Below, piece by piece: positions 5,071 through 42,846 of a DNA stretch of 44,773 nt. Each line of letters starts with the position of its first letter. Positions within the stretch are counted from its first letter, which is position 1. Origin of the DNA: Escherichia phage vB_EcoS_UTEC10; the sequence record PP291582.1. One strand, given 5' to 3'. The notes beneath the pieces were generated by a model. The model worked only from the letters and a program-made list of their open reading frames with translations, did not search any database and was not told where the DNA came from. A program made the position numbers and the translations under genes.

Positions 5071-5099
5071 ATAGTAGCCTATTCTATCTTAGTGTGCAA
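5071..5099 (-). promoter_or_regulatory. promoter TTGCAC-N17-TACTAT with embedded AATAG-N4-CTATT inverted repeat
   Basis: Minus-strand reading of 5071-5099; inverted repeat at 5070-5083 lies in the spacer. Confidence 0.5.
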
Positions 5100-25750: not shown

Positions 25751-28092
25751 TATTTAAACCCCGGCGCGTTTCTTGTGGCCTTGCGGGCCTTGCTAATCTT
25801 ACTGTTGCTGTTCTGCAAAGATGCAGCAACTTGCTCTTCTATGATGATACGCAGACGGCCTTCATCATCCTGCTCGGTGGATACGTTGCCAATCTGACTC
25901 GATGTATTATTTACAATGGTAACATTAGATGGGCCGGAAGAAGACCCGTTTTGCCCCATAATTTCTTTCATCTGCTGCGCGGTGCGCACACGCGATGCGC
26001 CAGCGGGCATGATAACTTCGGGTTTACCGCGTTCAGCGATGGTGGAAGCCTGCCCTGCGGATAACTGTCCGCCCTGTTCACGCGCGGACCGGATAGCGGA
26101 AACCTGCGCCATACCCGCCCCAACGGCAGCGGCAGCGGCTACGGGGGCCAGGAACGGGCCAACTACAGGGATAGCGGCCGTTGACTTATAAGCCTCAATA
26201 GCTGCTGTGTACGTGGCTATGGTGGCCTGTACGATAGCGAATGCCTTATACGCACCAGAGGCCTCGCCCAACGCAGACCCGATGTTTGACGCCATGTTAC
26301 CGAAGGCGGTTGCCGTTGCGTCGGCACGCTTGGTGGCGTATTGCTCGTTGATGGCGTTAAGCGCGGCCTGATACTGCTTCTCACTAATAAGCCCTTGCTC
26401 ACGGTACTTATCTGCGACCGCCAGTTTCTGCTGCTCCTGGATGTCGAGAAGATCAAGCTCAGTAGCGTTCTGGCCAATAATCTGAGCCATGAAGTCGTCG
26501 CCTTTCTGCTTTTTCTCCTGCCGTTCTTTCTCGCGCTTATCCAATTCTTGCTGCCGTGCGGTATCCGCCTCCAGCATAATCTGAGTTTTGGCGTTCTCGT
26601 ATTGTTGGTCGCTAAGAAGCCTATTGCCATAGAACTCCTGTAGCTTGGTTAGCTGCTGTTCCTGGTTGGCTTCTATTTTCTGGAATACGTCATCATTGAG
26701 ATGAATCGACTGGTAGTAGAAATCCTCAGCAGCTTTCTTCTGGCGCTCGAACGCATCCGCGGCTTTCTTAGCGGCTTTTGCACCAGCGCTATCATCTTCG
26801 GATCCGCCACCAGTACCCGTTACCTTAAATTTACTAAGCCCTTCTTCCTTAGCAGCCTCTTTGTCGATGTCATACGCCGCGCGTTTAAGCGCGACGATAT
26901 TTTGCTGAGCCTCCACCTGTTCACGGAAACTTTTACGGGTCAGGTCAGCAACATCGCGCTGAGTATCCAGTGCCATCCCCAGCTGGAAGTTGATATTTTT
27001 TGCTACGTCTACAGATTCACCTGGTGTGAAGGCCGCTTTCACTAGTCGCCCAGCGTCCTGTGCCCCTTTAACCATATCCTCAAAGAAGCGCTCCATAGCG
27101 GTGAATTCTTCTGCGATGAAATCGAGAGCATCGGCGGCGGATTCCGCTATGGTTGTCGCCGTTTGTTCGCCGCTGTCAGTGATACTTTTACTGCTAAAAT
27201 CCCAAAGTTCATTCAGTCCGTTTATCGCATCGCCTACGAAGCCGAACGCGGCGTCAAACGACGTCTCTATGGCGCTGCCTACTTCTGACGCGATGTCGCC
27301 CCACATACGCATCTCAGCAGCAAGCTCCCCAGATGCAACCTGTGCATTAAGCTCCTGGATTAAGTCATCTATGTATCTGATAGGTTCGGCTAGGGCGCCA
27401 ACATCAAGACTGGTGGCCAGTGTCATTTTTAACTGCGACCATGAGTCGCTGGCACTGGCTATAGCGCCGTTGAGTGTGTTGGCCTGGTCCGCCATAGCAC
27501 CCGCAAAGTTTACGTTACCAATGTTAAGAAGGTACTGCTCGATATCAGCAGCGCTCTTCTTAACTACCGTAGTGGTGCCCTGGAATGTAAATTCAACATC
27601 GTTTTTGTTCTGCTTGGCCTTGATGCCGAACTCTTTAAGGCGCTCAAATTCAAATGTACTGGCGTCCGCAACGGCCTCAATCATCTGATTCAGGTCTTTA
27701 CCCATAGCGGCGGCGGTGTTGCCGTAGGAGCGCAACGCTTCTTCTGATGGGGTGAGGCCGAGCGCCACAAGTTTACGGAAACCCTCTACTGCCTGCTCGA
27801 GCCCGTAAGGAGTGTCGCGCGCGAAGTCTTGCAGGATGCTTAATGCCTGTCTTGCGCCCTGTGTGCTCCCGGTTAACGTTTTCAGGCTGGCGGACATCTT
27901 GTCCAGTTGCCGTTGGGAGTCCACCAGTTCCTGCGCGGCCTTGTAAGCGGTAGCGGCGACAATTGAAGCAAGGCCCGCTACGGCGGTCCCCGCTACTTTT
28001 GCCGACTTGGAGAGATTATCAAGACGGTCCGATGTAGCTTTCGCGCCTTGCTCTGATACTTTTACAACTAAACTAGCTACATCAGCCATCAT
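25750..28092 (-). CDS. tail tape measure protein
   Basis: 780 aa, long helical/coiled-coil protein rich in Ala/Gln/Glu; location downstream of the chaperone pair. Confidence 0.8.
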   Translation of the reverse strand: MMADVASLVVKVSEQGAKATSDRLDNLSKSAKVAGTAVAGLASIVAATAYKAAQELVDSQRQLDKMSASLKTLTGSTQGARQALSILQDFARDTPYGLEQAVEGFRKLVALGLTPSEEALRSYGNTAAAMGKDLNQMIEAVADASTFEFERLKEFGIKAKQNKNDVEFTFQGTTTVVKKSAADIEQYLLNIGNVNFAGAMADQANTLNGAIASASDSWSQLKMTLATSLDVGALAEPIRYIDDLIQELNAQVASGELAAEMRMWGDIASEVGSAIETSFDAAFGFVGDAINGLNELWDFSSKSITDSGEQTATTIAESAADALDFIAEEFTAMERFFEDMVKGAQDAGRLVKAAFTPGESVDVAKNINFQLGMALDTQRDVADLTRKSFREQVEAQQNIVALKRAAYDIDKEAAKEEGLSKFKVTGTGGGSEDDSAGAKAAKKAADAFERQKKAAEDFYYQSIHLNDDVFQKIEANQEQQLTKLQEFYGNRLLSDQQYENAKTQIMLEADTARQQELDKREKERQEKKQKGDDFMAQIIGQNATELDLLDIQEQQKLAVADKYREQGLISEKQYQAALNAINEQYATKRADATATAFGNMASNIGSALGEASGAYKAFAIVQATIATYTAAIEAYKSTAAIPVVGPFLAPVAAAAAVGAGMAQVSAIRSAREQGGQLSAGQASTIAERGKPEVIMPAGASRVRTAQQMKEIMGQNGSSSGPSNVTIVNNTSSQIGNVSTEQDDEGRLRIIIEEQVAASLQNSNSKISKARKATRNAPGFK

Positions 28093-28441
28093 TTCTACCC
28101 TCGAAAATAGCGTCTAAGCTCATGATGATGCCAGATTCAAACATGCCTATATTCTGGCCTGAAACGGTGCTGTACGCCACTAAATCCGACCATCTTAACT
28201 GTTCACGCGGGTACATCTTGATGCCATCATCGTCCACTCGGCGGGTGAATTTGATTTCCCGGTACTTCTCGAAGGTGGTTAGTAGCTCAGGGGGGCATTC
28301 TGGCCCGGTGTCCTGCGTTGCTTCCGGCGCGTCTTGCATAACCCCCATAGCAATTAGCGCGGCTTTATGCCCGTCGGAGATACTGTCAAACTCCCGCCGT
28401 TTGTGGCGAGTTATGAAGTTCCAACGGGCAAACTGGAGCAA
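28082..28441 (-). CDS. tail assembly chaperone, T-like frame (probable -1 frameshift extension of the G-like gene)
   Basis: ORF lies in the -1 frame relative to 28447..28863 and is open from 28474; GGAAAAG sits just before the G stop codon. Confidence 0.45.
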   Translation of the reverse strand: MLQFARWNFITRHKRREFDSISDGHKAALIAMGVMQDAPEATQDTGPECPPELLTTFEKYREIKFTRRVDDDGIKMYPREQLRWSDLVAYSTVSGQNIGMFESGIIMSLDAIFEGRNDG

Positions 28442-28446
28442 CGCGT

Positions 28447-28863
28447 CTACTTTTCCTGCAATTGGTGTAGCTGTTCATTGTGGAAAACAACAACGTGTTC
28501 AGCGAGGCGTTTATATTGTGAGAAAAGGGTATTCAGGTTCTCTTTATTAAATTCATCGTCGAGACTCCAACCGTTAACTAGTTCAAGTGCTAACTGGCGG
28601 TTAAGGTCCGTCGCGGCGTCTTCCATCTTAATATTGTATTCCGAGAAATCTTTCAGTTCCTCGCATTTATCACGAAGCGGTTTCAATTTACCTAATGCCG
28701 CGCGGTACGCAAGTGTAAACGCCCTCATAGCTTTAACAGCAACGTCTGCCTCCGGTGAAACAACGTTAAGCCACTCCCCTGAATCGGTGCCGTCTTTCAG
28801 TGGGATCGGCATACGGGCGCCTTTTTCCGCCTCAGCTTCGTAATAAAAATCGGAAAGTTTCAT
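28447..28863 (-). CDS. tail assembly chaperone (lambda G-like)
   Basis: 138 aa acidic protein immediately upstream of the T-frame ORF and tape measure gene. Confidence 0.5.
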   Translation of the reverse strand: MKLSDFYYEAEAEKGARMPIPLKDGTDSGEWLNVVSPEADVAVKAMRAFTLAYRAALGKLKPLRDKCEELKDFSEYNIKMEDAATDLNRQLALELVNGWSLDDEFNKENLNTLFSQYKRLAEHVVVFHNEQLHQLQEK

Positions 28864-28970: not shown

Positions 28971-28999
28971 TTGCAGGCCCCAATATAATAGGGTACTAT
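28971..28999 (+). promoter_or_regulatory. cassette promoter TTGCAG-N17-TACTAT with embedded TATAAT and AATAG-GGTA-CTATT repeat
   Basis: CCAATATAATAGGGTACTATTCA is repeated near-identically at 38644-38668 and 40816-40840. Confidence 0.55.
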
Positions 29000-29029
29000 T
29001 CACTTACACCAACAATGGAGGAATTTAAA

Positions 29030-29221
29030 ATGTCAAGTTTACCAGTTTCATTAATTCTGTTTGCACTTCTCGCCTATTTCGCGCCTTTCCTGGTTGCATA
29101 CTTCCGTAATCATAAAGCGAAGTTGGCAATATTCATGGCCAATCTGTTTCTTGGTTGGATTCTGTTGCCGTGGGTATTCATTTTAATCTGGGCTTGCAAC
29201 TCGAACGTGAAAGAGAAGTAA
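29030..29221 (+). CDS. small two-TM membrane protein, superinfection-immunity (Imm)-like
   Basis: Internal ATG with GGAGGAA RBS; 63 aa; NLFLGWILLPWVFILIWA resembles the conserved motif of small superinfection-immunity proteins. Confidence 0.5.
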   Translation: MSSLPVSLILFALLAYFAPFLVAYFRNHKAKLAIFMANLFLGWILLPWVFILIWACNSNVKEK

Positions 29222-29258: not shown

Positions 29259-30389
29259 ATGGCCCGGAAGAAAATAACCGACGAACAGTTGCAGGAAGAA
29301 TTGAACGCCGGGATGAAGAATATCGATATAGCTCGTAAATACGGCATCTCCGACCGCGTTATTCGTATCCGTAAAGCGAAGCTGGCAAAGAAAGGCGTAG
29401 GCCACGGGCGCGACGTTAGTCACCTTGTACCAGACGGCTACAAGATTAAAGGAACGTCGTCGCTTGTGGACGAGTTCGGCAACACTAAGCTGCAATGGGT
29501 TAAGACCGACACCGATGCCGAACGTCAGGTCGAGTTAATGAAGGCCGTAATCGAGGGCATGAAGTCGGAGATTACCCCCGTTGCTCCTGTTAAAGCCGTT
29601 CGCACCAAACGAGACGACAAGCTACTCAACCTTTACACTGTGTCTGATTTCCATCTCGGTATGCTGGCATGGGCCGACGAGAGCGGCGATGACTGGGATA
29701 TGAAGATTGCAGAAGACCTGTTCTCTCGGTGGTTTGATGCTGCGTTTCAGAAAGCGCCAGATGCGGGAACAGGGGTTATTAACCTTCTTGGTGACTTCGC
29801 GCACTTTGATAGTCTGGATGCCGTTACGCCAGCGAGTGGTCATGTTCTTGACGCGGATACGCGCTATCAGAAACTGGTCCGCTACATGATTCGTATGGTC
29901 CGCCGTGTTGTCGATATGGCTCTGGTTAAACATAAAAATGTTCGCCTGCTTATCGTGCAAGGGAACCATGACGAATCAGGTATGATTTGGTTGGCTGAGA
30001 TGTTCAGTACGCTATACGACAACGAGCCTCGTGTGTTCGTCGATACGTCGCCGGATGTTTACAAGATGGTGCAACACGGCAAAACGACGCTGTTCTTCCA
30101 CCACGGGCATAAAGCACGCTTCGATGCTATCGAACCGGTTATGATTGCCAAGTTCCGCAAAGCGTTCGGTGAGAGCGTTTATAGCTACGCCCACGTGGGC
30201 CACCTGCACCATCAGAAGATTGTAGAAAGCCGTAACATGATTGTTGAGCAACACCGCACCTTAGCGGCTAAAGATGCTTACGCCTCTCGCGGCGGGTGGA
30301 TGTCGGGCCGTAGTGCAAACGTAATTACTTATAGCGCCGAATACGGCGAGGTCGCACGTTTAACTATTTCACCGGAGATGCTGGGATGA
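29259..30389 (+). CDS. HTH domain fused to calcineurin-like metallophosphoesterase
   Basis: N-terminus NIDIARKYGISDRVIRIRKAKL (HTH); C-terminal motifs DFHLG, GDFAHFD, GNHDE, HHGH, GHLHH match the DxH / GD / GNH[DE] / H / GHxH set. Confidence 0.7.
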   Translation: MARKKITDEQLQEELNAGMKNIDIARKYGISDRVIRIRKAKLAKKGVGHGRDVSHLVPDGYKIKGTSSLVDEFGNTKLQWVKTDTDAERQVELMKAVIEGMKSEITPVAPVKAVRTKRDDKLLNLYTVSDFHLGMLAWADESGDDWDMKIAEDLFSRWFDAAFQKAPDAGTGVINLLGDFAHFDSLDAVTPASGHVLDADTRYQKLVRYMIRMVRRVVDMALVKHKNVRLLIVQGNHDESGMIWLAEMFSTLYDNEPRVFVDTSPDVYKMVQHGKTTLFFHHGHKARFDAIEPVMIAKFRKAFGESVYSYAHVGHLHHQKIVESRNMIVEQHRTLAAKDAYASRGGWMSGRSANVITYSAEYGEVARLTISPEMLG

Positions 30390-30871
30390 AAAGTATTGTG
30401 ATTTTCGATTTAGATGGGACATTGGCTGATGGTACGCATCGTTTGCACCTGCTGCCGAAAGATAACTACAACGAAACGTGGGCGTGGAAGCCCTTTAACA
30501 TGGCGTGCAAAGATGATGAACCAATTAGAGATAACATCGAACTGTGTAACGCCCTCAATCGTCGCTACGCCGTTATTATTTTAACGGGCCGTAGTGATGA
30601 TGCAGAAAAAGAAACCAGAATGTGGTTGCAGCGCCACCGCGTCGAATTTTATCAGCTAATCATGCGCGGCAAACACGACAACAGAAAAGACATCGCAATT
30701 AAAGAAGAGGTGTTGCGTGCTATCGGGCTGGAGAGAATCTTGTGTGCATTCGATGATTCTCCGGCGGTAATTAAGCATTTCCGAGGCCTCGGCATAACCA
30801 CACACGCTGTCACTGAATACGACTGTAACGGTAACTCTACACACTTAAAATCACACGGGAGTGATAAATAA
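30386..30871 (+). CDS. HAD-family phosphatase (T4 Pnk phosphatase-domain-like)
   Basis: VIFDLDGTLADG is HAD motif I (DxDGT); later TGR and D-containing motifs; ATGA overlap with the upstream gene. Confidence 0.7.
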   Translation: MKSIVIFDLDGTLADGTHRLHLLPKDNYNETWAWKPFNMACKDDEPIRDNIELCNALNRRYAVIILTGRSDDAEKETRMWLQRHRVEFYQLIMRGKHDNRKDIAIKEEVLRAIGLERILCAFDDSPAVIKHFRGLGITTHAVTEYDCNGNSTHLKSHGSDK

Positions 30872-31425
30872 TGGCTAAGGTAATTATTCTTAATGGCCCT
30901 GCGGGTTGCGGGAAAGACACGCTTGCTAGGGAGCTGGTAGAAATGGGCTTTGCAAAAGGAACTACCAGTTTCAAGAATCCGATGTTCAATATTGCGCTGG
31001 CGGCGTTAGGCCCCGATACTTACCACGAGTTTCTCGACGGCTACGACGACCGGGCGCGGAAAGAAAAGCCGGAAGGCTTCCTTAACGGGTTGTCTCGGCG
31101 TCAGTTCATGATTGCCATTTCTGAGCAATTCATTAAACCGGTATTCGGTGACGATTATTTCGGTAAATATCTCGCTGAAAACTTGCCTGACGGCGACGAA
31201 GTTTTTGTAGTGTCCGACGGTGGATTCGCCAGTGAAGTGGTCCCTATCGTCGCCGCAGGGCATGACGTAAGAATTGTTCGCTTACACAGAGACGGCTATA
31301 CGTTCATCGGCGATAGCCGGGAGTATCTGTATGATGTTAGTGGCGTAAAAGATTACGACATCTACATCATACCGGGTGACGTTAAATCCAACGTCATAGA
31401 CATTGCTCTAAAATTAGGTTTGTAA
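30871..31425 (+). CDS. P-loop kinase (T4 gp1 dNMP-kinase-like, or polynucleotide-kinase-like)
   Basis: Walker A GPAGCGKDT near the N-terminus; overall layout resembles T4 gp1 (SGKDT Walker A, RLHRDG region). Confidence 0.65.
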   Translation: MAKVIILNGPAGCGKDTLARELVEMGFAKGTTSFKNPMFNIALAALGPDTYHEFLDGYDDRARKEKPEGFLNGLSRRQFMIAISEQFIKPVFGDDYFGKYLAENLPDGDEVFVVSDGGFASEVVPIVAAGHDVRIVRLHRDGYTFIGDSREYLYDVSGVKDYDIYIIPGDVKSNVIDIALKLGL

Positions 31426-31429
31426 GAAA

Positions 31430-31455
31430 AAGGCCCCGAAAGGGGCCTTAGTTTT
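31430..31455. terminator. bidirectional Rho-independent terminator (AAGGCCCC-GAAA-GGGGCCTT)
   Basis: Same stem and AGTTTTA flank as the 19060-19086 terminator; overlaps the major tail gene stop. Confidence 0.65.
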
Positions 31456-32620
31456 ATGCGTAGGTGATACGCTGGATAACAATAGACGACTGGTACTGGT
31501 TGCCAGTAGCCTGGCCCTCAATGGACTGAGTGATTGACTCAGGCCCGCCAATCTCTGGCGTAACCGCCGTAAGTTCCGCACGTTTCAGGCTGAAAGACAT
31601 AGCCCCGTTTACCCCCGCCAGAATAGAGTTAATCTCTACCTGCTGTTCGTTGATAAACTTCTGAATCATCGCCATGTCGTACAGCTTACCGGAGATGGAG
31701 AAGGTGTTAGCCGCGCGGCTACGCTCCACAAACGCTACGTTAGTGTTGCCGAGTTCGAACTGCGCCGACGCGCTGTTATCGTTGGTGATGGTCAGGCTAT
31801 CACAACGCAACGGCGTAGAACCGTCGAACACAGAAACGTCAACCGAGGAGAACGGCTCATCACCAAAAGTAACAGATGAGAAGTTGGAACCGGTCGGCGG
31901 CGTAGTGAGAATCTCCTGACTGCGACCGATGAATGGGAAGCTGCCAGTTACCATCGCGTTAACAGCCTGTTCGATGGTAAAACCAGAAACTTCCACGCCT
32001 TTGGTTAACGTGTACGCGTCAGTACCGCCGCACTGGCCTTTGTACCAGGTAAGGATAGAGAACGTCTTACACGTGTTACCGGTTTCCAGCGTGTCGCCGG
32101 TTTTAGCCTTACTAGTTTTTGTCTCGGTGGTCAGGGTGTGTTGGATGCCCGCACCAGTAACAACCGTAGCCGTTACTGCAGTAACAATAAATGGTTTTGC
32201 GTTATCGCCTGTTAAATCGGTAAATGCAATCAGGTCGCCTACCCCAACTCCGTCAGTGATAAAACTGCCGGTAGCGCGTGTGAACGTCTTGCCCGCCGGT
32301 GCGACCGTAATCGACAGACTGGACAGGGAAACACCGGATTGCCACGTAGAGCCTAAAGCACCAGCCAGCCAGTCATCCTGGCTTTTCGAGCTAAGCTCGA
32401 TCGCGTATTCGCCGCTAACCTGTTTGTTACCGGTGCGGATGGATGTAGTTTCACGGCTGCCGTCCAGTTCGTTGGAGGTCAGCGTGTCGCGGGTAATAGC
32501 AGGAACACCGCCTGTGTTGCGCAACGGCGACCATACCGGGTTAGCTGGTGTTACGCCCGGGGTGACTTCCGCCACATAGAATTGCGCGGTATTCGCGCCC
32601 TTAAAAGGAGTTGTAGCCAT
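31454..32620 (-). CDS. major tail (tube) protein
   Basis: About 388 aa Thr/Ser/Gly-rich protein downstream of the tail terminator gene; ATG at 32620 with AAGAGG RBS. Confidence 0.65.
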   Translation of the reverse strand: MATTPFKGANTAQFYVAEVTPGVTPANPVWSPLRNTGGVPAITRDTLTSNELDGSRETTSIRTGNKQVSGEYAIELSSKSQDDWLAGALGSTWQSGVSLSSLSITVAPAGKTFTRATGSFITDGVGVGDLIAFTDLTGDNAKPFIVTAVTATVVTGAGIQHTLTTETKTSKAKTGDTLETGNTCKTFSILTWYKGQCGGTDAYTLTKGVEVSGFTIEQAVNAMVTGSFPFIGRSQEILTTPPTGSNFSSVTFGDEPFSSVDVSVFDGSTPLRCDSLTITNDNSASAQFELGNTNVAFVERSRAANTFSISGKLYDMAMIQKFINEQQVEINSILAGVNGAMSFSLKRAELTAVTPEIGGPESITQSIEGQATGNQYQSSIVIQRITYA

Positions 32621-32622
32621 AT

Positions 32623-33036
32623 TCACAGCCTCTTGGTGAATGCAATAAAGTTAATTGACAATGGTCGTTTGGCCCATCCGTTTTCTACAATCAGCGGCCC
32701 CAGGCTAACCGATTGAACCTCGGCGCAGATGTCGTTACGTGAAAATGACTTACCTGCTTTAAACGCCGTGTTAAGTAAGTCTGCCATTTTATTGATTGGC
32801 GCGCTACCTTTCACCGATGCGTAGTTAATGTCTACCTGATAAACACCGGCGCGTTGTTCCGTGAAGAACAAATCAGCCTGCTCGGTATCCGCAAGTAGCA
32901 TGTAACTTGCCAGATACGGCGTATCGGTTGACGTCGGCGCGTCAATATTTTCAAGCGCAACCTTGATGCCGTTGGTGGTTCCGAAGGCTACCAGCGGCAC
33001 ATCGAACGCTTTGGTTAAGTCTTCAAAGTAGCCCAT
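32623..33036 (-). CDS. tail terminator / tail completion protein
   Basis: 137 aa; synteny immediately upstream of the major tail gene. Confidence 0.45.
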   Translation of the reverse strand: MGYFEDLTKAFDVPLVAFGTTNGIKVALENIDAPTSTDTPYLASYMLLADTEQADLFFTEQRAGVYQVDINYASVKGSAPINKMADLLNTAFKAGKSFSRNDICAEVQSVSLGPLIVENGWAKRPLSINFIAFTKRL

Positions 33037-38085: not shown

Positions 38086-38317
38086 GGGTAATTACCTCTG
38101 ATTTCGTCTTGCCTTCGTTGTCAGCGGCGGCTGCCTTTGATTCATCCTGCTGCTGCCGTTGTGTTTTCTTCGCTAACTCAGCCTGTGCTTTCTGCTGTTG
38201 CTGCGAAACGAGATTAGCGCGGCCTTCGTCCCAACCAGCGCGGTACTGGTAGATGCCGTGTGCGTATAACAGGATGATGAAACATGCTCCCGCTACGACA
38301 GTTGCTTTAAGATTCAT
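37931..38317 (-). CDS. i-spanin (Rz-like)
   Basis: N-terminal TM helix (ATVVAGACFIILLYAHGIY) followed by a Gln/Ala/Lys-rich coiled-coil region. Confidence 0.55.
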   Translation of the reverse strand: MNLKATVVAGACFIILLYAHGIYQYRAGWDEGRANLVSQQQQKAQAELAKKTQRQQQDESKAAAADNEGKTKSEVITREVVKYIKTPGRSVCTFDDARVLLKSRAVANANSISGYDDDAATVQTGHAK

Positions 38318-38636
38318 GTTTCTCCTTTCTCGATAAGTAAAGCCCCGCCATAAAGCGGGGCGCTAGTCCTTATCATTTAAACATAGAAACGGCGTAATCT
38401 CAGTAAACCCGGTACTTTTTACACAAGCAATAGAGTATGGCCCTTCCGAACGCGTCAGCGTAACTACACTCGGACTTAACGTCCGGCTCCGTTACCTGCC
38501 CGCGCCGCGGTCGCTTGTTCATACTTCACAAGCTCAGGTGGAGCTTATCATATTTTCAGTGAAAAGTCAACTATTCGAATAGTTTATTCCAACATTTACA
38601 ATTGAGCGGAATAACTGGAATACGTAAACAAATAGT

Positions 38637-38665
38637 TTGCGGACACCAATATAATAGGGTACTAT
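38637..38665 (+). promoter_or_regulatory. cassette promoter TTGCGG-N17-TACTAT with embedded AATAG-GGTA-CTATT repeat
   Basis: Near-identical to the promoters at 28971 and 40809. Confidence 0.55.
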
Positions 38666-38691
38666 TCATTACAACGAAACGAGGAGGGTGT

Positions 38692-39231
38692 ATGCTCACT
38701 AAACGTTCAGAAGCCATAGCCGCTGGTGATGATTATTACTTCACGGGAAAACCGTGTAAACGTGGGCATGTTGCGAAAAGGCATGTCCGCACCGGGTGCT
38801 ATGAGTGCGCTAAAGAGATACAAAAATCGTACCGAGAACGCAACGTTGTTTCTTGGGCGGCGAAAAACGCAAAATGGAGGCAAGAAAATAGAGACCGAAT
38901 AGCCGAAATTGACGCAGAGTACCGTAAGAAAAACAAAACCGCCAGGAAAGCCCAAAGGCTAAAGTATAAAACGGCAAAAAGAGCCAGGAGTATAAACATC
39001 AGGAATGATGAATTTGACCTATTAGTATTCGAAGAAGCGCAGGAGCTATGTCAACTACGAGCGGGCGAAACAGGTTTCGTATGGCATATCGACCACATGC
39101 TGCCGCTGCGTGCTAAAACTGTCTCGGGGCTGCATGTCGCAGAAAACATACAAGTTATCCCCGCGGTTCTGAATCTCTTAAAAGGTAATAAATTAATTTT
39201 CACCGAGAGAGGCTCTTGGTTGTCTTCCTGA
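38692..39231 (+). CDS. HNH endonuclease (free-standing)
   Basis: Internal ATG with GAGGAGGG RBS; GDDYYFTGKPCKRGH zinc-binding N-terminus and HIDHMLPLRAK...N HNH motif. Confidence 0.75.
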   Translation: MLTKRSEAIAAGDDYYFTGKPCKRGHVAKRHVRTGCYECAKEIQKSYRERNVVSWAAKNAKWRQENRDRIAEIDAEYRKKNKTARKAQRLKYKTAKRARSINIRNDEFDLLVFEEAQELCQLRAGETGFVWHIDHMLPLRAKTVSGLHVAENIQVIPAVLNLLKGNKLIFTERGSWLSS

Positions 39232-39236
39232 AATTG

Positions 39237-39259
39237 AGGCCCCTTAATGGGGCCTTTTA
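39237..39259 (+). terminator. Rho-independent terminator (AGGCCCC-TTAAT-GGGGCCT)
   Basis: GC stem followed by TTTTAT. Confidence 0.55.
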
Positions 39260-39721
39260 TCATTCTGGCTTAGTAACCTTCGCCGCTTTACTCACAGCCT
39301 CTACTCCATCAGCATCGGTAACTTTAACGAAGTATTCACCGACAGCATTAACTGTCAGAGACAAAGCCTCTTCCGGGGCGTTTACCACTTCCTTACCGTC
39401 TTTGTACCAGGTCAGCGCATACGGCGCTTTGCCCGCCTTAACTTCAACAGTAAGAGTCGCGCTGCCGTCTACCAATTCGGTGTCTTTCGGTTGTACAGAG
39501 AAATACACATCACCAGCGTCCGCCAGATACGGAATCTCGTAAAGCATACCAGCCGCCGGAAGCGCAATACCGGTTTTATCTGCAAACGGCATATCGTCTA
39601 CAGGTGTACCCAGTACACTTTCGTCCTCAATAAATACCACGTTCTCGCCAGAGCCAGACACGCGGGTGTACTGGACAACACGACGCGACGGTACATCAGT
39701 TACTTTGAAAAAGCCCATCAT
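39260..39721 (-). CDS. Ig-like (BIG2-type) domain virion protein
   Basis: C-terminal YALTWYKDGKEV...GEYFVKVTDADG Ig-like pattern; downstream of head morphogenesis gene. Confidence 0.5.
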   Translation of the reverse strand: MMGFFKVTDVPSRRVVQYTRVSGSGENVVFIEDESVLGTPVDDMPFADKTGIALPAAGMLYEIPYLADAGDVYFSVQPKDTELVDGSATLTVEVKAGKAPYALTWYKDGKEVVNAPEEALSLTVNAVGEYFVKVTDADGVEAVSKAAKVTKPE

Positions 39722-40808: not shown

Positions 40809-40837
40809 TTGCAGACACCAATATAATAGGGTACTAT
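40809..40837 (+). promoter_or_regulatory. cassette promoter TTGCAG-N17-TACTAT with embedded AATAG-GGTA-CTATT repeat
   Basis: Third copy of CACCAATATAATAGGGTACTATTCA. Confidence 0.55.
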
Positions 40838-40864
40838 TCAGTTAACTTAAGCAGGAGATGAAAA

Positions 40865-41026
40865 ATGGTTACTTTGATTACCTGGGAACACGAAAATAGT
40901 CAACCTGAAACGCGTGAATTCGAAACTGTGGCGGCTTGCTACCGCCTGGCGTCAGCCGGATTCTATAAATCACAGATTGTAAATGAGTTTGGAGTGGTGG
41001 ATTATGAGTTTACGAAACAATCTTAA
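40865..41026 (+). CDS. hypothetical small protein (53 aa)
   Basis: Manually translated (MVTLITWEHENSQPETREFETVAACYRLASAGFYK...); AGGAGA RBS 8 nt upstream. Confidence 0.4.
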   Translation: MVTLITWEHENSQPETREFETVAACYRLASAGFYKSQIVNEFGVVDYEFTKQS

Positions 41027-41348
41027 GAATCACTTGAAGGTCTACGGACCCAAGGGGTTGCATTCATGGAACGGCGGGTATGACGTAAACGATGACCTGC
41101 CAATACGTAAAATAGCGCGCGCGGCGAGACGCAATGTAGAGCCTGGCGACGTGCTAGTTATACGAGATAATAATGTCATTGTTGAAGTTGAGAAAGTTCT
41201 TGGTGTGTTTCTCATAGTAATACCTGTTGATGTTGTTTTGCGTGACGCAAGGCCTTACCGAGAAGCTGGGAGCGGTAAAACTGGTAAATACACATACGGC
41301 AGGATTAAGATACATAAAACACATCTTGATAAATTTAAGGCCCCGTGA
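41004..41348 (+). CDS. hypothetical protein
   Basis: Internal ATG of track ORF 40983..41348 (MSLRNNLKNHL...); stop codon lies in the terminator loop. Confidence 0.45.
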   Translation: MSLRNNLKNHLKVYGPKGLHSWNGGYDVNDDLPIRKIARAARRNVEPGDVLVIRDNNVIVEVEKVLGVFLIVIPVDVVLRDARPYREAGSGKTGKYTYGRIKIHKTHLDKFKAP

Positions 41349-41356
41349 GGGGCCTT
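41337..41356 (+). terminator. Rho-independent terminator (AAGGCCCC-GTGA-GGGGCCTT)
   Basis: Same stem as the terminators at 19060 and 31430. Confidence 0.6.
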
Positions 41357-41358
41357 TC

Positions 41359-42846
41359 TTATTGCTGCGGATTCTGTTGGTCTTGCGGGTTAGCCGACTG
41401 CGGAATCTCCCCCGCCACCTGAGTAACCGCGCCCATCGGCAACGGTGCATCCTCGATAGCGTTCTGAATATCCTCATCCGTCCAGTCAGTTACCCCAGCT
41501 TTACGCAATGCCGCGTAGTAAGCGGTAGCTGGTAGCAGGCCTGCGTTAATATCCGCCATCCACTGAGCACGGTCCTGAGCGGTCATCGGTTGCAGGAAGA
41601 ACTCCATGTTCAGTTTGAACTCAACCTCTGTGTCCTCACGCAACCCTAGCATCGCAGCCACCCAGCGCAACGCATCGGTGTACGCCATGCTTACGTTACG
41701 TGCGATTGTCGCCATAACGGATGTATCCGCTCCACGTTGCAGGCGGGCCGATTCCGCGGTGATTTGCTGCGTCGGGGTGATAAGCTGCGCGCCAATCTGG
41801 ATTGCCTGATTCTCTTTATCCAGCATGTTCTGTTTGGCGAGGTTGTTCTCTCCCGCCTGAACCAGAAACGCATTGCCGCCGTAGCCAATGTTATGGCCTG
41901 AGCGCGACCCCATGCGCACGCCGTGAGGGTTGGCTTCTTTCCATTGCTCCATGCTCATGTTTTCACCAGGGGCGATGAACAGAGTTGGCTGGCCTACAAC
42001 AAAGCTGGACTCCTCATTGTCCGCGCTGTTGCGGAAATGCCCGATATTAAGTTCAGCCAACGGCAACAAAGGGGCATCGTCGATGGTTGCGTCGTTGTTG
42101 CTCGCTCCAATGAACGTGAAGGGGATTTTGCCGCGTAACTGTTCGCCAAGTTCCGGGAAGATTTCGATTACTTCACCCTGTGCACCACCTTCTGCATCGA
42201 AGCGATAGATTCGCTGGCGGTAGTGACCGTCAATAAGGTCAAGGACGCGGTATTGCTCACCGAACTTTGTCTCAAATTCCGCGCCGGGTTCTGAGTATTC
42301 CCATACTTCTCGCAACACAACCATTGTCACACGGTTAACTGAACCTACGCGAGTCAGTCGCCAGTTGATGATGTTCTCTGCGGTATAGAATGCGATGACC
42401 GGGTTTAATAAGCCCGCATTCTGTTCTGCCGCCGTCGCCGCGGCTGTCTCCGGGGCGTCCACCAGCAACCCGCCACGGCCTACTGAGTCAATCTCCATCA
42501 GCGTATCCTGCGCGTGCTGCCACAGCCCGACACCAGAACCGTCGGCGTTACGTAATAGGTACTCAAGCTCAGGCGGGATAATCTGCTCGGGGTCTTTGCG
42601 CATCACGGACCCGACCATCCCCGCCAGCGTTCTCTTGGTGAAGTTGTAGCAGATAGCGCCGTTCTCGTATTCTTCCTGGCGCTGTGCTGCATATTTAGGG
42701 TCCGGCTCGTTCTTCCCGACGTTGCGCAGATAGCGAATAAGGTCGCCTTCCAGCGCGTGGCGTACCTTCTGCCATTTATCGAAGTGATGCAGCCATTCCC
42801 GGTGTTTTGTCTTAACACCCTGATTCTGACCGTTCATAGTTAACAT
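41359..42846 (-). CDS. portal protein
   Basis: 495 aa immediately downstream of TerL; AAGAGGA RBS. Confidence 0.7.
   Translation of the reverse strand: MLTMNGQNQGVKTKHREWLHHFDKWQKVRHALEGDLIRYLRNVGKNEPDPKYAAQRQEEYENGAICYNFTKRTLAGMVGSVMRKDPEQIIPPELEYLLRNADGSGVGLWQHAQDTLMEIDSVGRGGLLVDAPETAAATAAEQNAGLLNPVIAFYTAENIINWRLTRVGSVNRVTMVVLREVWEYSEPGAEFETKFGEQYRVLDLIDGHYRQRIYRFDAEGGAQGEVIEIFPELGEQLRGKIPFTFIGASNNDATIDDAPLLPLAELNIGHFRNSADNEESSFVVGQPTLFIAPGENMSMEQWKEANPHGVRMGSRSGHNIGYGGNAFLVQAGENNLAKQNMLDKENQAIQIGAQLITPTQQITAESARLQRGADTSVMATIARNVSMAYTDALRWVAAMLGLREDTEVEFKLNMEFFLQPMTAQDRAQWMADINAGLLPATAYYAALRKAGVTDWTDEDIQNAIEDAPLPMGAVTQVAGEIPQSANPQDQQNPQQ

What the first reader, a model, noticed from the sequence alone, without database searches (positions are those of the whole stretch)
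29259..30389. HTH domain fused to a calcineurin-like metallophosphoesterase
The N-terminal 45 aa look like a DNA-binding HTH and the C-terminal 250 aa carry the full DxH / GD / GNH[DE] / H / GHxH motif set seen in Mre11/SbcD nucleases, class III cNMP phosphodiesterases, lambda phosphatase and Pnkp-type end-healing enzymes. The sequence alone cannot say which activity applies, and the fusion is unusual.
Basis: partly seen in the sequence, partly recalled or inferred. Interest (0 to 1): 0.7.

Follow-up and report, generated by a model that had tools for sequence, protein, structure and literature searches.

The report
Phage DNA-binding metallo-nuclease-like enzyme
This gene joins a small DNA-binding domain to a metal-dependent phosphoesterase most similar to DNA-cutting enzymes; it is a common but untested protein of thousands of phages, so the fusion is ordinary, though it is a candidate for the unidentified enzyme that lets T1-type phages destroy host DNA.

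Summary
ORF 29259..30389 (+, 376 aa) has an N-terminal three-helix HTH (about residues 5-45) and a complete metallophosphoesterase (MPE) motif set: D130xH132, G178-D179, G235-N-H-D238, H282, G314-H-x-H317. The claim that the fusion is unusual does not hold. It is the standard architecture of PHROG 704 (E 2e-167, full length). It occurs in about 2,050 phage records and 4,650 50%-identity protein clusters, including T1 ORF16 and TLS gp66, and also in lambdoid prophages.

Here the gene lies in a four-gene operon (Imm, HTH-MPE, Pnkp-type HAD 3'-phosphatase, dNMP-kinase-like P-loop kinase). The phosphatase and kinase are absent from 15 of 27 close relatives.

Best reading (0.45): a stand-alone, HTH-tethered DNA nuclease, probably for DNA breakdown and nucleotide salvage. 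I found no experimental study. Interest is moderate to low.

The parts
28971..29000 (+). Promoter-like element of the cassette: TTGCAG, 17-nt spacer, TACTAT. It contains the palindrome AATAGGGTACTATT (28987-29000).
   Evidence: Near-identical 30-nt elements occur at 38637 and 40809 (+) and at 5099 and 6769 (-). Function as a promoter is inferred from consensus only.
29015..29221 (+). First gene of the operon: 68-aa membrane protein of the superinfection-immunity (Imm) family.
   Evidence: Pfam PF14373 E 1.6e-12; PHROG 1039 E 4e-24.
29259..30389 (+). The HTH-MPE gene (376 aa), the subject of the finding.
29259..29393 (+). N-terminal three-helix HTH (residues 1-45; helices 8-16, 21-28, 32-44) of the GerE / sigma-70 region 4 / Fis type.
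29439..29570 (+). Family-specific beta-hairpin (residues 61-85; G74 and W80 at least 90% conserved) plus a long helix (87-104). A low-confidence linker (45-58) precedes it. Role unknown.
29613..30386 (+). MPE catalytic domain (residues 119-376). Motif codons: D130 29646-29648, H132 29652-29654, G178-D179 29790-29795, N236-H237 29964-29969, H282 30102-30104, H315 to H317 30201-30209. It includes a conserved insert after motif II (H182, D184, T190, D198, R202).
30386..30871 (+). Pnkp-type HAD 3'-phosphatase (161 aa). Its start overlaps the MPE stop codon (ATGA).
   Evidence: Pfam HAD_PNKP E 8e-19; PHROG 415; PDB Pnkp1 and the T4 PNK phosphatase domain. Absent from 15 of 27 close relatives.
30871..31425 (+). 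P-loop kinase (184 aa), dNMP-kinase-like. Whether its substrate is a nucleotide or a polynucleotide is unresolved.
   Evidence: PHROG 139 E 1.8e-45; 39% identical to T1 ST62; no PDB or NCBIfam match.
31430..31449 (.). G+C-rich hairpin, terminator-like on both strands. It lies between the end of the cassette and the convergent tail gene (31454..32626, -).

Best explanation
The protein is a stand-alone, metal-dependent DNA nuclease or phosphodiesterase of the Mre11/SbcD/PolD-DP1 branch of the calcineurin-like superfamily. A flexible linker joins it to an N-terminal GerE/sigma-r4/Fis-type HTH that holds the enzyme on DNA. It works without a Rad50/SbcC partner and without a capping domain.

Its most likely job in lytic growth is to break down DNA, principally the host chromosome, into ends and mononucleotides that the phage reuses. 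In this phage it is co-transcribed and translationally coupled with a Pnkp-type 3'-phosphatase and a dNMP-kinase-like kinase. These could unblock 3'-phosphate ends and re-phosphorylate the products.

Shown: domain architecture, intact catalytic motifs, fold neighbours, operon layout, distribution. Inferred: DNA as substrate, nuclease chemistry, host DNA as target, cooperation with the neighbouring genes.
For: 1. All metal-ligand motifs are invariant over 138 relatives of 31-50% identity, so the protein is an active enzyme.
3. A profile of the MPE domain alone, searched against all PDB sequences, returns only T. maritima Mre11/SbcD (E 0.016) and the P. putida MPE nuclease (0.076). They share DxHLG..W and GDxLH. 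The window has SDFHLG..AW and GDFAH.
4. A DNA-binding HTH is always fused and is sometimes duplicated (P0133).
5. T5 A1 is a predicted metallophosphatase with the same structural neighbours. It is reported necessary and sufficient for host DNA degradation, and its partner A2 binds DNA (bioRxiv 10.64898/2026.04.02.716235).
6. T1 and TLS degrade the host genome and reuse the nucleotides, and the genes responsible are unidentified (PMC11447400). Both encode this protein at 46% identity.
7. The gene recurs next to nucleotide and DNA-metabolism genes. MPE-HAD-kinase occurs in the same order in the podophage ECBP5, between exonuclease/endonuclease VII and DNA ligase. It sits near ThyX and a dATP/dGTP pyrophosphohydrolase in an N4-like phage.
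8. The window already has a polymerase with an exonuclease domain, a separate exonuclease and an SSB/annealing protein. A proofreading or core recombination role is therefore not required.
Against: 1. No biochemical or genetic data exist for any member (10 literature searches).
3. There is no detectable sequence relationship to T5 A1 beyond about 20 columns around GNHD.
4. The family also sits in lambdoid prophages next to Q antiterminators. Wholesale host-DNA destruction is less expected there.
5. The most common context in diverse loci is the lysis/terminase boundary. That fits a late phage-DNA processing role equally well.
6. HAD and kinase are absent in 15 of 27 close relatives, so the salvage-module reading is not general.
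Confidence: 0.45

Rival explanations
1. It is a DNA nuclease that acts on the phage's own DNA. It would process hairpins, branches, blocked ends or concatemers late in infection, for recombination or ahead of packaging. This would be SbcD-like end or hairpin processing, or a terminase-accessory nuclease analogous to terminase-associated HNH proteins.
For: The structural and profile evidence is the same as for the main reading. The gene lies at the early/late boundary in many lineages: just before lysis genes in T1, TLS, C119 and Vc1; just before TerS-TerL in Dhillonvirus; next to Q, lysis and terminase genes in prophages. Its presence in temperate phages fits a role on phage DNA.
Against: The window and T1 already encode dedicated recombination or junction nucleases: exonuclease plus Gp2.5-like protein here; RecE, Erf and a VRR-NUC homologue in T1-likes. 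There is no Rad50/SbcC partner. In Guernseyvirinae the gene sits in a moron-like cassette with a superinfection-immunity gene, not with packaging or recombination genes.
Confidence: 0.2
2. It is a small-molecule phosphodiesterase or pyrophosphatase acting on nucleotides: cyclic mono-, di- or oligonucleotide immune signals, Np4N, dNTP or dNMP derivatives. The role would be anti-defence or nucleotide-pool control, with the HTH only localising or regulating it.
Against: An obligatory DNA-binding HTH has no obvious role for a soluble small-molecule enzyme. Nuclease-branch structures score higher at similar aligned lengths. The PDB profile search hits nucleases only. There is no similarity to known anti-CBASS or anti-Pycsar enzymes and no PADLOC-type match.
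Confidence: 0.12
3. It is the third activity of a split Pnkp-like end-healing system: MPE 2',3'-cyclic phosphodiesterase or 3'-end cleaner, plus HAD 3'-phosphatase, plus 5'-kinase. The system would repair RNA (for example tRNAs cut by anticodon nucleases) or DNA nicks for a ligase.
For: The MPE stop codon overlaps the HAD start, in one operon with the kinase. The same trio, in the same order, is followed by an ATP-dependent DNA ligase in ECBP5-like podophages. The HAD protein matches Pnkp1 and the T4 PNK phosphatase.
Confidence: 0.1
4. It is primarily a transcription regulator. The HTH would bind the promoter-embedded AATAG-N4-CTATT palindromes or contact RNA polymerase like sigma region 4. 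The MPE domain would act as a sensor or modifier.
For: The HTH resembles sigma-70 region 4, LuxR or Fis. The palindrome is 9-fold over-represented against 0 expected and overlaps sigma70-like promoters, including the cassette's own. The gene position mimics late regulators in several phages.
Against: Catalytic residues are invariant, so enzymatic activity is under selection. Prophage homologues sit beside a separate Q antiterminator. The palindrome is absent from five other loci that carry the protein. The window has other candidate regulators: K1ind1 ORF37 is annotated 'excisionase and transcriptional regulator'.
Confidence: 0.06

Closest known systems
Mre11 / SbcD nucleases (catalytic subunits of Mre11-Rad50 / SbcCD)
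   Different: No C-terminal capping domain: only 59 residues follow motif V. No Rad50/SbcC gene in the genome. An N-terminal HTH plus a beta-hairpin/helix module instead. A family-specific insert after motif II. Identity is only 14-17%.
PolD small subunit DP1 (archaeal 3'-5' proofreading exonuclease) and the inactive B-subunits of eukaryotic polymerases
   Different: No Pfam or PHROG match and no predicted secondary structure for an N-terminal OB-fold domain, and no DP2 partner. The phage polymerase here is a family with its own exonuclease domain. T1-like phages carrying the protein have no polymerase at all. 12% identity.
Phage T5 A1 (with its DNA-binding partner A2)
   Same: A phage-encoded predicted metallophosphatase whose structural neighbours are the same DSB-repair and proofreading nucleases. 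It is genetically necessary and sufficient for host DNA degradation and is paired with a DNA-binding protein. It is a functional analogue of an HTH-MPE fusion.
   Different: No significant sequence similarity: hhalign probability 18% over 20 columns. A different PHROG (1745 against 704). 556 aa with a long N-terminal region. A1 also controls second-step DNA transfer. Nuclease activity of A1 itself has not yet been shown in vitro.
Lambda phosphatase (NinI) and the MPE domain of Clostridium thermocellum Pnkp (PPP-type phosphatases)
   Same: Same superfamily. Lambda NinI occupies the same genomic slot (nin region just upstream of Q) as the prophage homologues (the lambda gene order is from my own knowledge). 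Here the gene neighbours a Pnkp-type phosphatase and a kinase.
Class III cyclic-nucleotide phosphodiesterases (Rv0805, CpdA/Icc) and GpdQ
   Different: Lower structural score than the nucleases at the same aligned length. No sequence-profile hit. None carries an N-terminal HTH.
Pseudomonas putida MPE nuclease (Mn-dependent ssDNA endonuclease in a repair gene cluster)
   Same: A stand-alone MPE DNA nuclease without a Rad50 partner. Marginal profile hit around GNHD (E 0.076). One public record labels a near-identical protein after it (P0045).

Membership tests
Calcineurin-like metallophosphoesterase superfamily | Five metal-binding motifs: DxH, GD, GNH[DE], H, GHxH | tested here: met
   D130/H132, G178-D179, G235-NHD238, H282, G314-HxH317 are present. 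They are invariant or at least 90% conserved in 138 relatives.
Calcineurin-like metallophosphoesterase superfamily | Beta-sandwich MPE fold with the motifs at strand ends | tested here: met
Calcineurin-like metallophosphoesterase superfamily | Pfam Metallophos / Metallophos_2 gathering score | tested here: not met
   18.9 against 21.5 bits and 22.2 against 27 bits for the window protein. Some relatives pass, for example P0131 at 25.1 bits. The family is a divergent branch.
PHROG 704 (phage 'DNA repair exonuclease'; HTH-MPE family) | Full-length match to the family profile, including the N-terminal region | tested here: met
   E 2.1e-167, residues 4-375 on profile positions 2-389 of 390.
Mre11/SbcD | Nuclease-type MPE core (DxHLG, GDxxH) closest in fold and sequence | tested here: met
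Mre11/SbcD | C-terminal capping domain | tested here: not met
   The protein ends 59 residues after motif V. The secondary structure there completes the MPE sandwich.
Mre11/SbcD | Rad50/SbcC ATPase partner gene | tested here: not met
   None in the fully annotated relative K1ind1, nor among the window's replication genes.
Mre11/SbcD | Mn-dependent exo- and endonuclease activity on DNA | not testable with these tools
   Needs biochemistry.
PolD DP1 | OB-fold domain N-terminal to the MPE and association with DP2 | tested here: not met
   The N-terminal region is an HTH plus a hairpin/helix. No DP2-like gene is present.
PPP-type phosphatases (lambda PP, Pnkp MPE domain) | GDxHG / GDxVDRG / GNHE signatures and a PPP-like fold | tested here: not met
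Class III cNMP phosphodiesterases | Generic motif set plus cNMP hydrolysis | tested here: inconclusive
T5 A1 family (PHROG 1745) | Sequence homology to A1 | tested here: not met
   BLASTP E 0.28; hhalign probability 18%; hmmsearch aligns only 18 residues. Different PHROG.
HTH DNA-binding domains (GerE / sigma-70 r4 / Fis type) | Three-helix bundle with a recognisable HTH profile match | tested here: met
   Helices 8-16, 21-28 and 32-44. Relatives match Sigma70_r4_2 at 1.5e-9, GerE at 2.4e-8 and HTH_8 at 2.6e-7. The window protein itself matches only weakly. DNA binding itself was not tested.

The most novel reading that the evidence does not exclude
The HTH-MPE protein (T1 ORF16, TLS gp66 and this Kagunavirus gene) is the long-unidentified nuclease that degrades the host chromosome in T1-type and related siphophages. 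It would be a single-chain functional equivalent of T5 A1 plus A2. Its mononucleotide products would feed phage DNA synthesis. Its loss would raise generalised transduction. Its products could also be what nucleotide-sensing defences detect, such as the m6-dAMP-triggered PUA-Cal-HAD system, which acts against a Tunavirinae phage.
Probability: 0.25. Interest if true: 0.6.

Novelty: new member of a known kind. Interest (0 to 1): 0.35.

Why it matters
The protein is a near-core gene of several phage groups that are widely isolated for therapy and biocontrol: Kagunavirus, Jerseyvirus, T1-like Drexlerviridae including Klebsiella phages, and Dhillonvirus. Public records label it inconsistently. Labels seen include DNA repair exonuclease, DNA polymerase II small subunit, proofreading exonuclease, transcriptional regulator, sigma70_r4_2 protein, winged-HTH protein and hypothetical protein.

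A tested function would fix thousands of annotations. If it is the host-DNA-degrading nuclease, it would answer a question left open since 1981 for T1 and restated in 2024 for TLS. [quoted passage not shown]

If instead it is a signalling-nucleotide phosphodiesterase, it would be a new and very widespread anti-defence enzyme.

Tried and rejected
1. Sequence search of the full protein against PDB gave nothing meaningful (STIV B204, FixJ).
2. NCBIfam and PADLOC gave no family.
3. The afdb50 fold library was unavailable. The BFVD viral library returned only unnamed or generically named phage relatives.
4. The first homologue search returned only proteins of at least 97% identity. Diversity came from the representative search.
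5. Homology to T5 A1 was rejected.
6. The idea that MPE, HAD and kinase form an obligatory three-part system was rejected. HAD and kinase are absent beside 15 of 27 near-identical MPE genes and in most diverse loci, and lie 35 kb away in T1.
7. The idea that the protein is the phage's late-gene activator was weakened by prophages that carry a separate Q next to it.
8. A proofreading role was rejected. The window's polymerase has its own exonuclease region, and T1-likes have no polymerase.
9. A homing-endonuclease reading (nuclease plus HTH) was rejected because the gene is syntenic and near-universal within whole phage families.
10. The search for related loci failed with the broader alignments A2 and A3. 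It worked only with a four-sequence alignment, so bacterial-genome sampling is biased towards relatives of about 40% identity or more.
11. Ten literature searches found no experimental study of the family. Two of them were badly chosen.

Full report
**What the window is.** The 44.8-kb window is a Kagunavirus-like (Guernseyvirinae) siphophage genome. The target region is 92-95% identical at nucleotide level to Escherichia phages M01, CR01, hz69 and K1ind1, and 278 phage records match by megablast. In K1ind1 the orthologue is ORF19, 'DNA repair exonuclease'. It is flanked by ORF20 (superinfection immunity), ORF18 ('polynucleotide kinase') and ORF17 ('ATP-binding protein'). This block sits in reverse orientation between the tail tube and tail chaperone genes.

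**Checking the observation.**
- ORF 29259..30389 (+) encodes 376 aa behind an AGGA ribosome-binding site.
- The MPE motifs can be read directly: SD130FH132LG, G178D179FAH182, G235N236H237D238, H281H282GH284, G314H315LH317.
- In an alignment of 138 representatives of 50%-identity clusters (31-50% identical to the query), D130, H132, G178, D179, N236, H237 and H282 are invariant. H182, D184, T190, L197, D198, R202, D238, H284, H315 and H317 are at least 90% conserved.
- An AlphaFold2 model built on that alignment is confident (pLDDT 93.5, pTM 0.82). It shows three N-terminal helices (8-16, 21-28, 32-44), a low-confidence linker (45-58), a conserved beta-hairpin (61-85) plus helix (87-104), and an MPE sandwich from residue 119. 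Every motif lies just after a core strand.
- HTH matches for the window protein itself are weak (GerE 0.012; FixJ 0.0036). Family members give significant hits to Sigma70_r4_2 (1.5e-9), GerE (2.4e-8), HTH_8/Fis (2.6e-7), HTH_1 and others.
- The N-terminal domain is present in essentially all representatives. One relative has two HTHs.
One caveat: Pfam MPE scores for this protein are below the gathering thresholds, so the family is a divergent branch.

**The fusion is not unusual.**
- The protein matches PHROG 704 end to end (E 2e-167).
- tblastn finds it in 2,051 of 50,697 phage records, 1,958 of them full-length. These span Guernseyvirinae, Drexlerviridae (T1 ORF16/ST16, TLS gp66, Klebsiella phages), Dhillonvirus, Vibrio phages, Rhodobacter RcKeef, an N4-like Roseovarius phage, Campylobacter and Flavobacterium phages.
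- A search of 1.8 billion cluster representatives gives 4,650 clusters at E<1e-3.
- It also lies inside bacterial chromosomes (Dyella, Rhizobium, Luteimonas, Bordetella, Pseudomonas and others). The examples I examined are lambdoid prophages. Pseudomonas P818 has DnaC-like loader ... HNH ... Ref-like ... HTH-MPE, Q-like antiterminator ... terminase. Dyella has a Q-like gene and then HTH-MPE.

**Which branch of the superfamily.**
- Next come LpxH (13.9), MJ0936 (13.5) and further Mre11/SbcD chains (13.1-13.5).
- Foldseek gives the same set with less separation.
- A profile of the MPE domain alone, searched against all PDB sequences, returns only T. maritima Mre11/SbcD entries (E 0.016-0.07) and the P. 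putida MPE nuclease (0.076). The alignment shows shared DxHLG..W and GDxLH.
- The protein is not a member of the Mre11/SbcD family proper. It has no capping domain and no Rad50/SbcC partner.
- It is not DP1. There is no OB fold and no DP2 partner, and the phage polymerase has its own exonuclease region.
- PPP signatures (GDxHG, GDxVDRG) are absent. Class III phosphodiesterases remain possible.

**Genomic context.**
- In the window the gene belongs to a compact unit. A sigma70-like promoter (TTGCAG, 17 nt, TACTAT; 28971-29000) is followed by imm (29015), HTH-MPE (29259), a Pnkp-type HAD phosphatase (30386, ATGA overlap), a dNMP-kinase-like P-loop kinase (30871) and a bidirectional terminator hairpin (31430-31449).
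- The trio MPE-HAD-kinase recurs in the same order in the T7-like podophage ECBP5 and its relatives. There it lies between an exonuclease/endonuclease VII pair and an ATP-dependent DNA ligase.
- The link is not obligatory. Among 27 Kaguna/Jersey-like metagenomic loci with at least 88% identical MPE genes, only 12 have HAD and kinase.
- A Salmonella relative has Imm-MPE-HNH-hyp-Ant instead.
- In T1 the HAD and kinase homologues (48% and 39% identity) lie 35 kb from the MPE gene.
- In 57 more distant loci, only 7 have a HAD gene nearby. 16 have a terminase and 12 an endolysin within a few kilobases.
- In Drexlerviridae the gene follows helicase/VRR-NUC/Dam and precedes the lysis genes. In Dhillonvirus it directly precedes TerS-TerL. 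In an N4-like phage it follows ThyX and a dATP/dGTP pyrophosphohydrolase.

**What is known.** Ten full-text searches found no experimental work on this family. Two papers frame the question.
- The TLS re-annotation states that T1 and TLS degrade the host genome and reuse the nucleotides, and that the responsible gene products have not been identified. It lists gp66, the homologue (46% identity), as a 'proof-reading exonuclease' (PMC11447400).
- A 2026 preprint shows that T5 A1 is necessary and sufficient for host DNA degradation. A1 is a predicted metallophosphatase with structural features of DSB-repair and proofreading nucleases, and its partner A2 binds DNA.
- A1 has no detectable sequence relationship to the present family. 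It is an analogue, not a relative.

**Interpretation.**
- The best-supported mechanism is an HTH-tethered, partner-less MPE nuclease acting on DNA. I put 0.45 on this reading with host-DNA breakdown and nucleotide salvage as the role. Within that, the specific claim that it is the host-chromosome-degrading nuclease gets about 0.25.
- In this phage the co-transcribed 3'-phosphatase and kinase would plausibly condition ends and products.
- The main rival is the same chemistry applied to phage DNA late in infection (0.2). Its position at the lysis/terminase boundary and its presence in temperate phages fit this rival.
- Less likely are a nucleotide-signal or nucleotide-pool phosphodiesterase (0.12), a split Pnkp-style end-healing system (0.10) and a transcription regulator acting at the AATAG-N4-CTATT promoters (0.06).
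- All steps beyond architecture, conservation, fold neighbours and gene context are inference.

**Verdict.** The feature is a typical member of a large, catalogued but uncharacterised phage family, not an unusual fusion. Novelty: new member of a known kind. Interest is moderate to low (0.35). It is raised somewhat because a simple knockout or expression experiment could settle whether this family is the missing T1-type host-DNA degradation enzyme.

Noticed in passing
window 5070, 5396, 6740, 10212, 12331, 16070, 28987, 38653, 40825: The palindrome AATAG-N4-CTATT occurs 9 times against 0 expected. The sites fall into promoter-like classes. Five share TTGC[AG][CG]-N10-AATAGGNTACTATT, where the right half is a TACTAT -10 box: + strand at 28971, 38637 and 40809; - strand at 5099 and 6769. 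Three lie after TTGAC(A) as AATAG-N4-CTATTATAGT in the replication region. K1ind1 has 5 sites. The T1, C119, EK99P-1, Vc1 and RcKeef loci have none.
   Followed up: partly
window 38317-39260 and 40821-41359: These are two reverse-oriented insertions inside the head-gene block, relative to K1ind1. Each starts with the same 30-nt promoter element as the MPE cassette. The first encodes a 179-aa endonuclease VII / HNH-like protein (38692-39231, PHROG 1035 E 1e-31). The second holds ORF 40983-41348 (121 aa, no family). They look like mobile morons that share a portable promoter.
   Followed up: partly
window 31430-31449: A perfect 8-bp G+C-rich hairpin (AAGGCCCC-GAAA-GGGGCCTT) sits between the convergent kinase gene and the tail gene. 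It reads as an intrinsic terminator on both strands.
   Followed up: no
IMG/VR loci L042, L046, L047, L050-L053, L056-L060, L065 compared with L040, L041, L043-L045, L048, L049: Kaguna/Jersey-like phages with 89-99% identical MPE genes differ in whether the HAD phosphatase and kinase follow it (12 of 27 have them). This indicates recent gain or loss of that gene pair. What replaces it was not examined, except in Salmonella phage SE129_1NRH (HNH, a hypothetical gene, Ant).
   Followed up: partly
L009 5624-6010; L011 5540-6007: In two prophages, a small ORF overlapping the MPE start resembles nucleotide-related families. The L009 ORF matches the C-terminal part of PHROG 7063 ('3'-phosphatase, 5'-polynucleotide kinase', E 1.5e-21). 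The L011 ORF weakly matches dATP/dGTP diphosphohydrolase N-terminal domain (PF18909, E 6e-4). They may be additional partners.
   Followed up: no
L032 6001-6950; L034 6001-6742; L035 3542-4476: The homologue is split into two frames in three MAG or genome loci. This may be a frameshifted or decaying prophage copy, or an assembly error.
   Followed up: no
window 28082-28863 (- strand): ORFs 28447..28863 and 28082..28441 correspond to the tail assembly chaperone pair. K1ind1 annotates this pair as a joined (programmed frameshift) product.
   Followed up: no
T5 A1 residues 389-408 against window residues 229-248: The only local similarity between T5 A1 and this family extends slightly beyond the GNHD motif: ESNHDLALSRWL against EGNHDxxSSxWLR in the family consensus. 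It is too short to be significant.
   Followed up: partly
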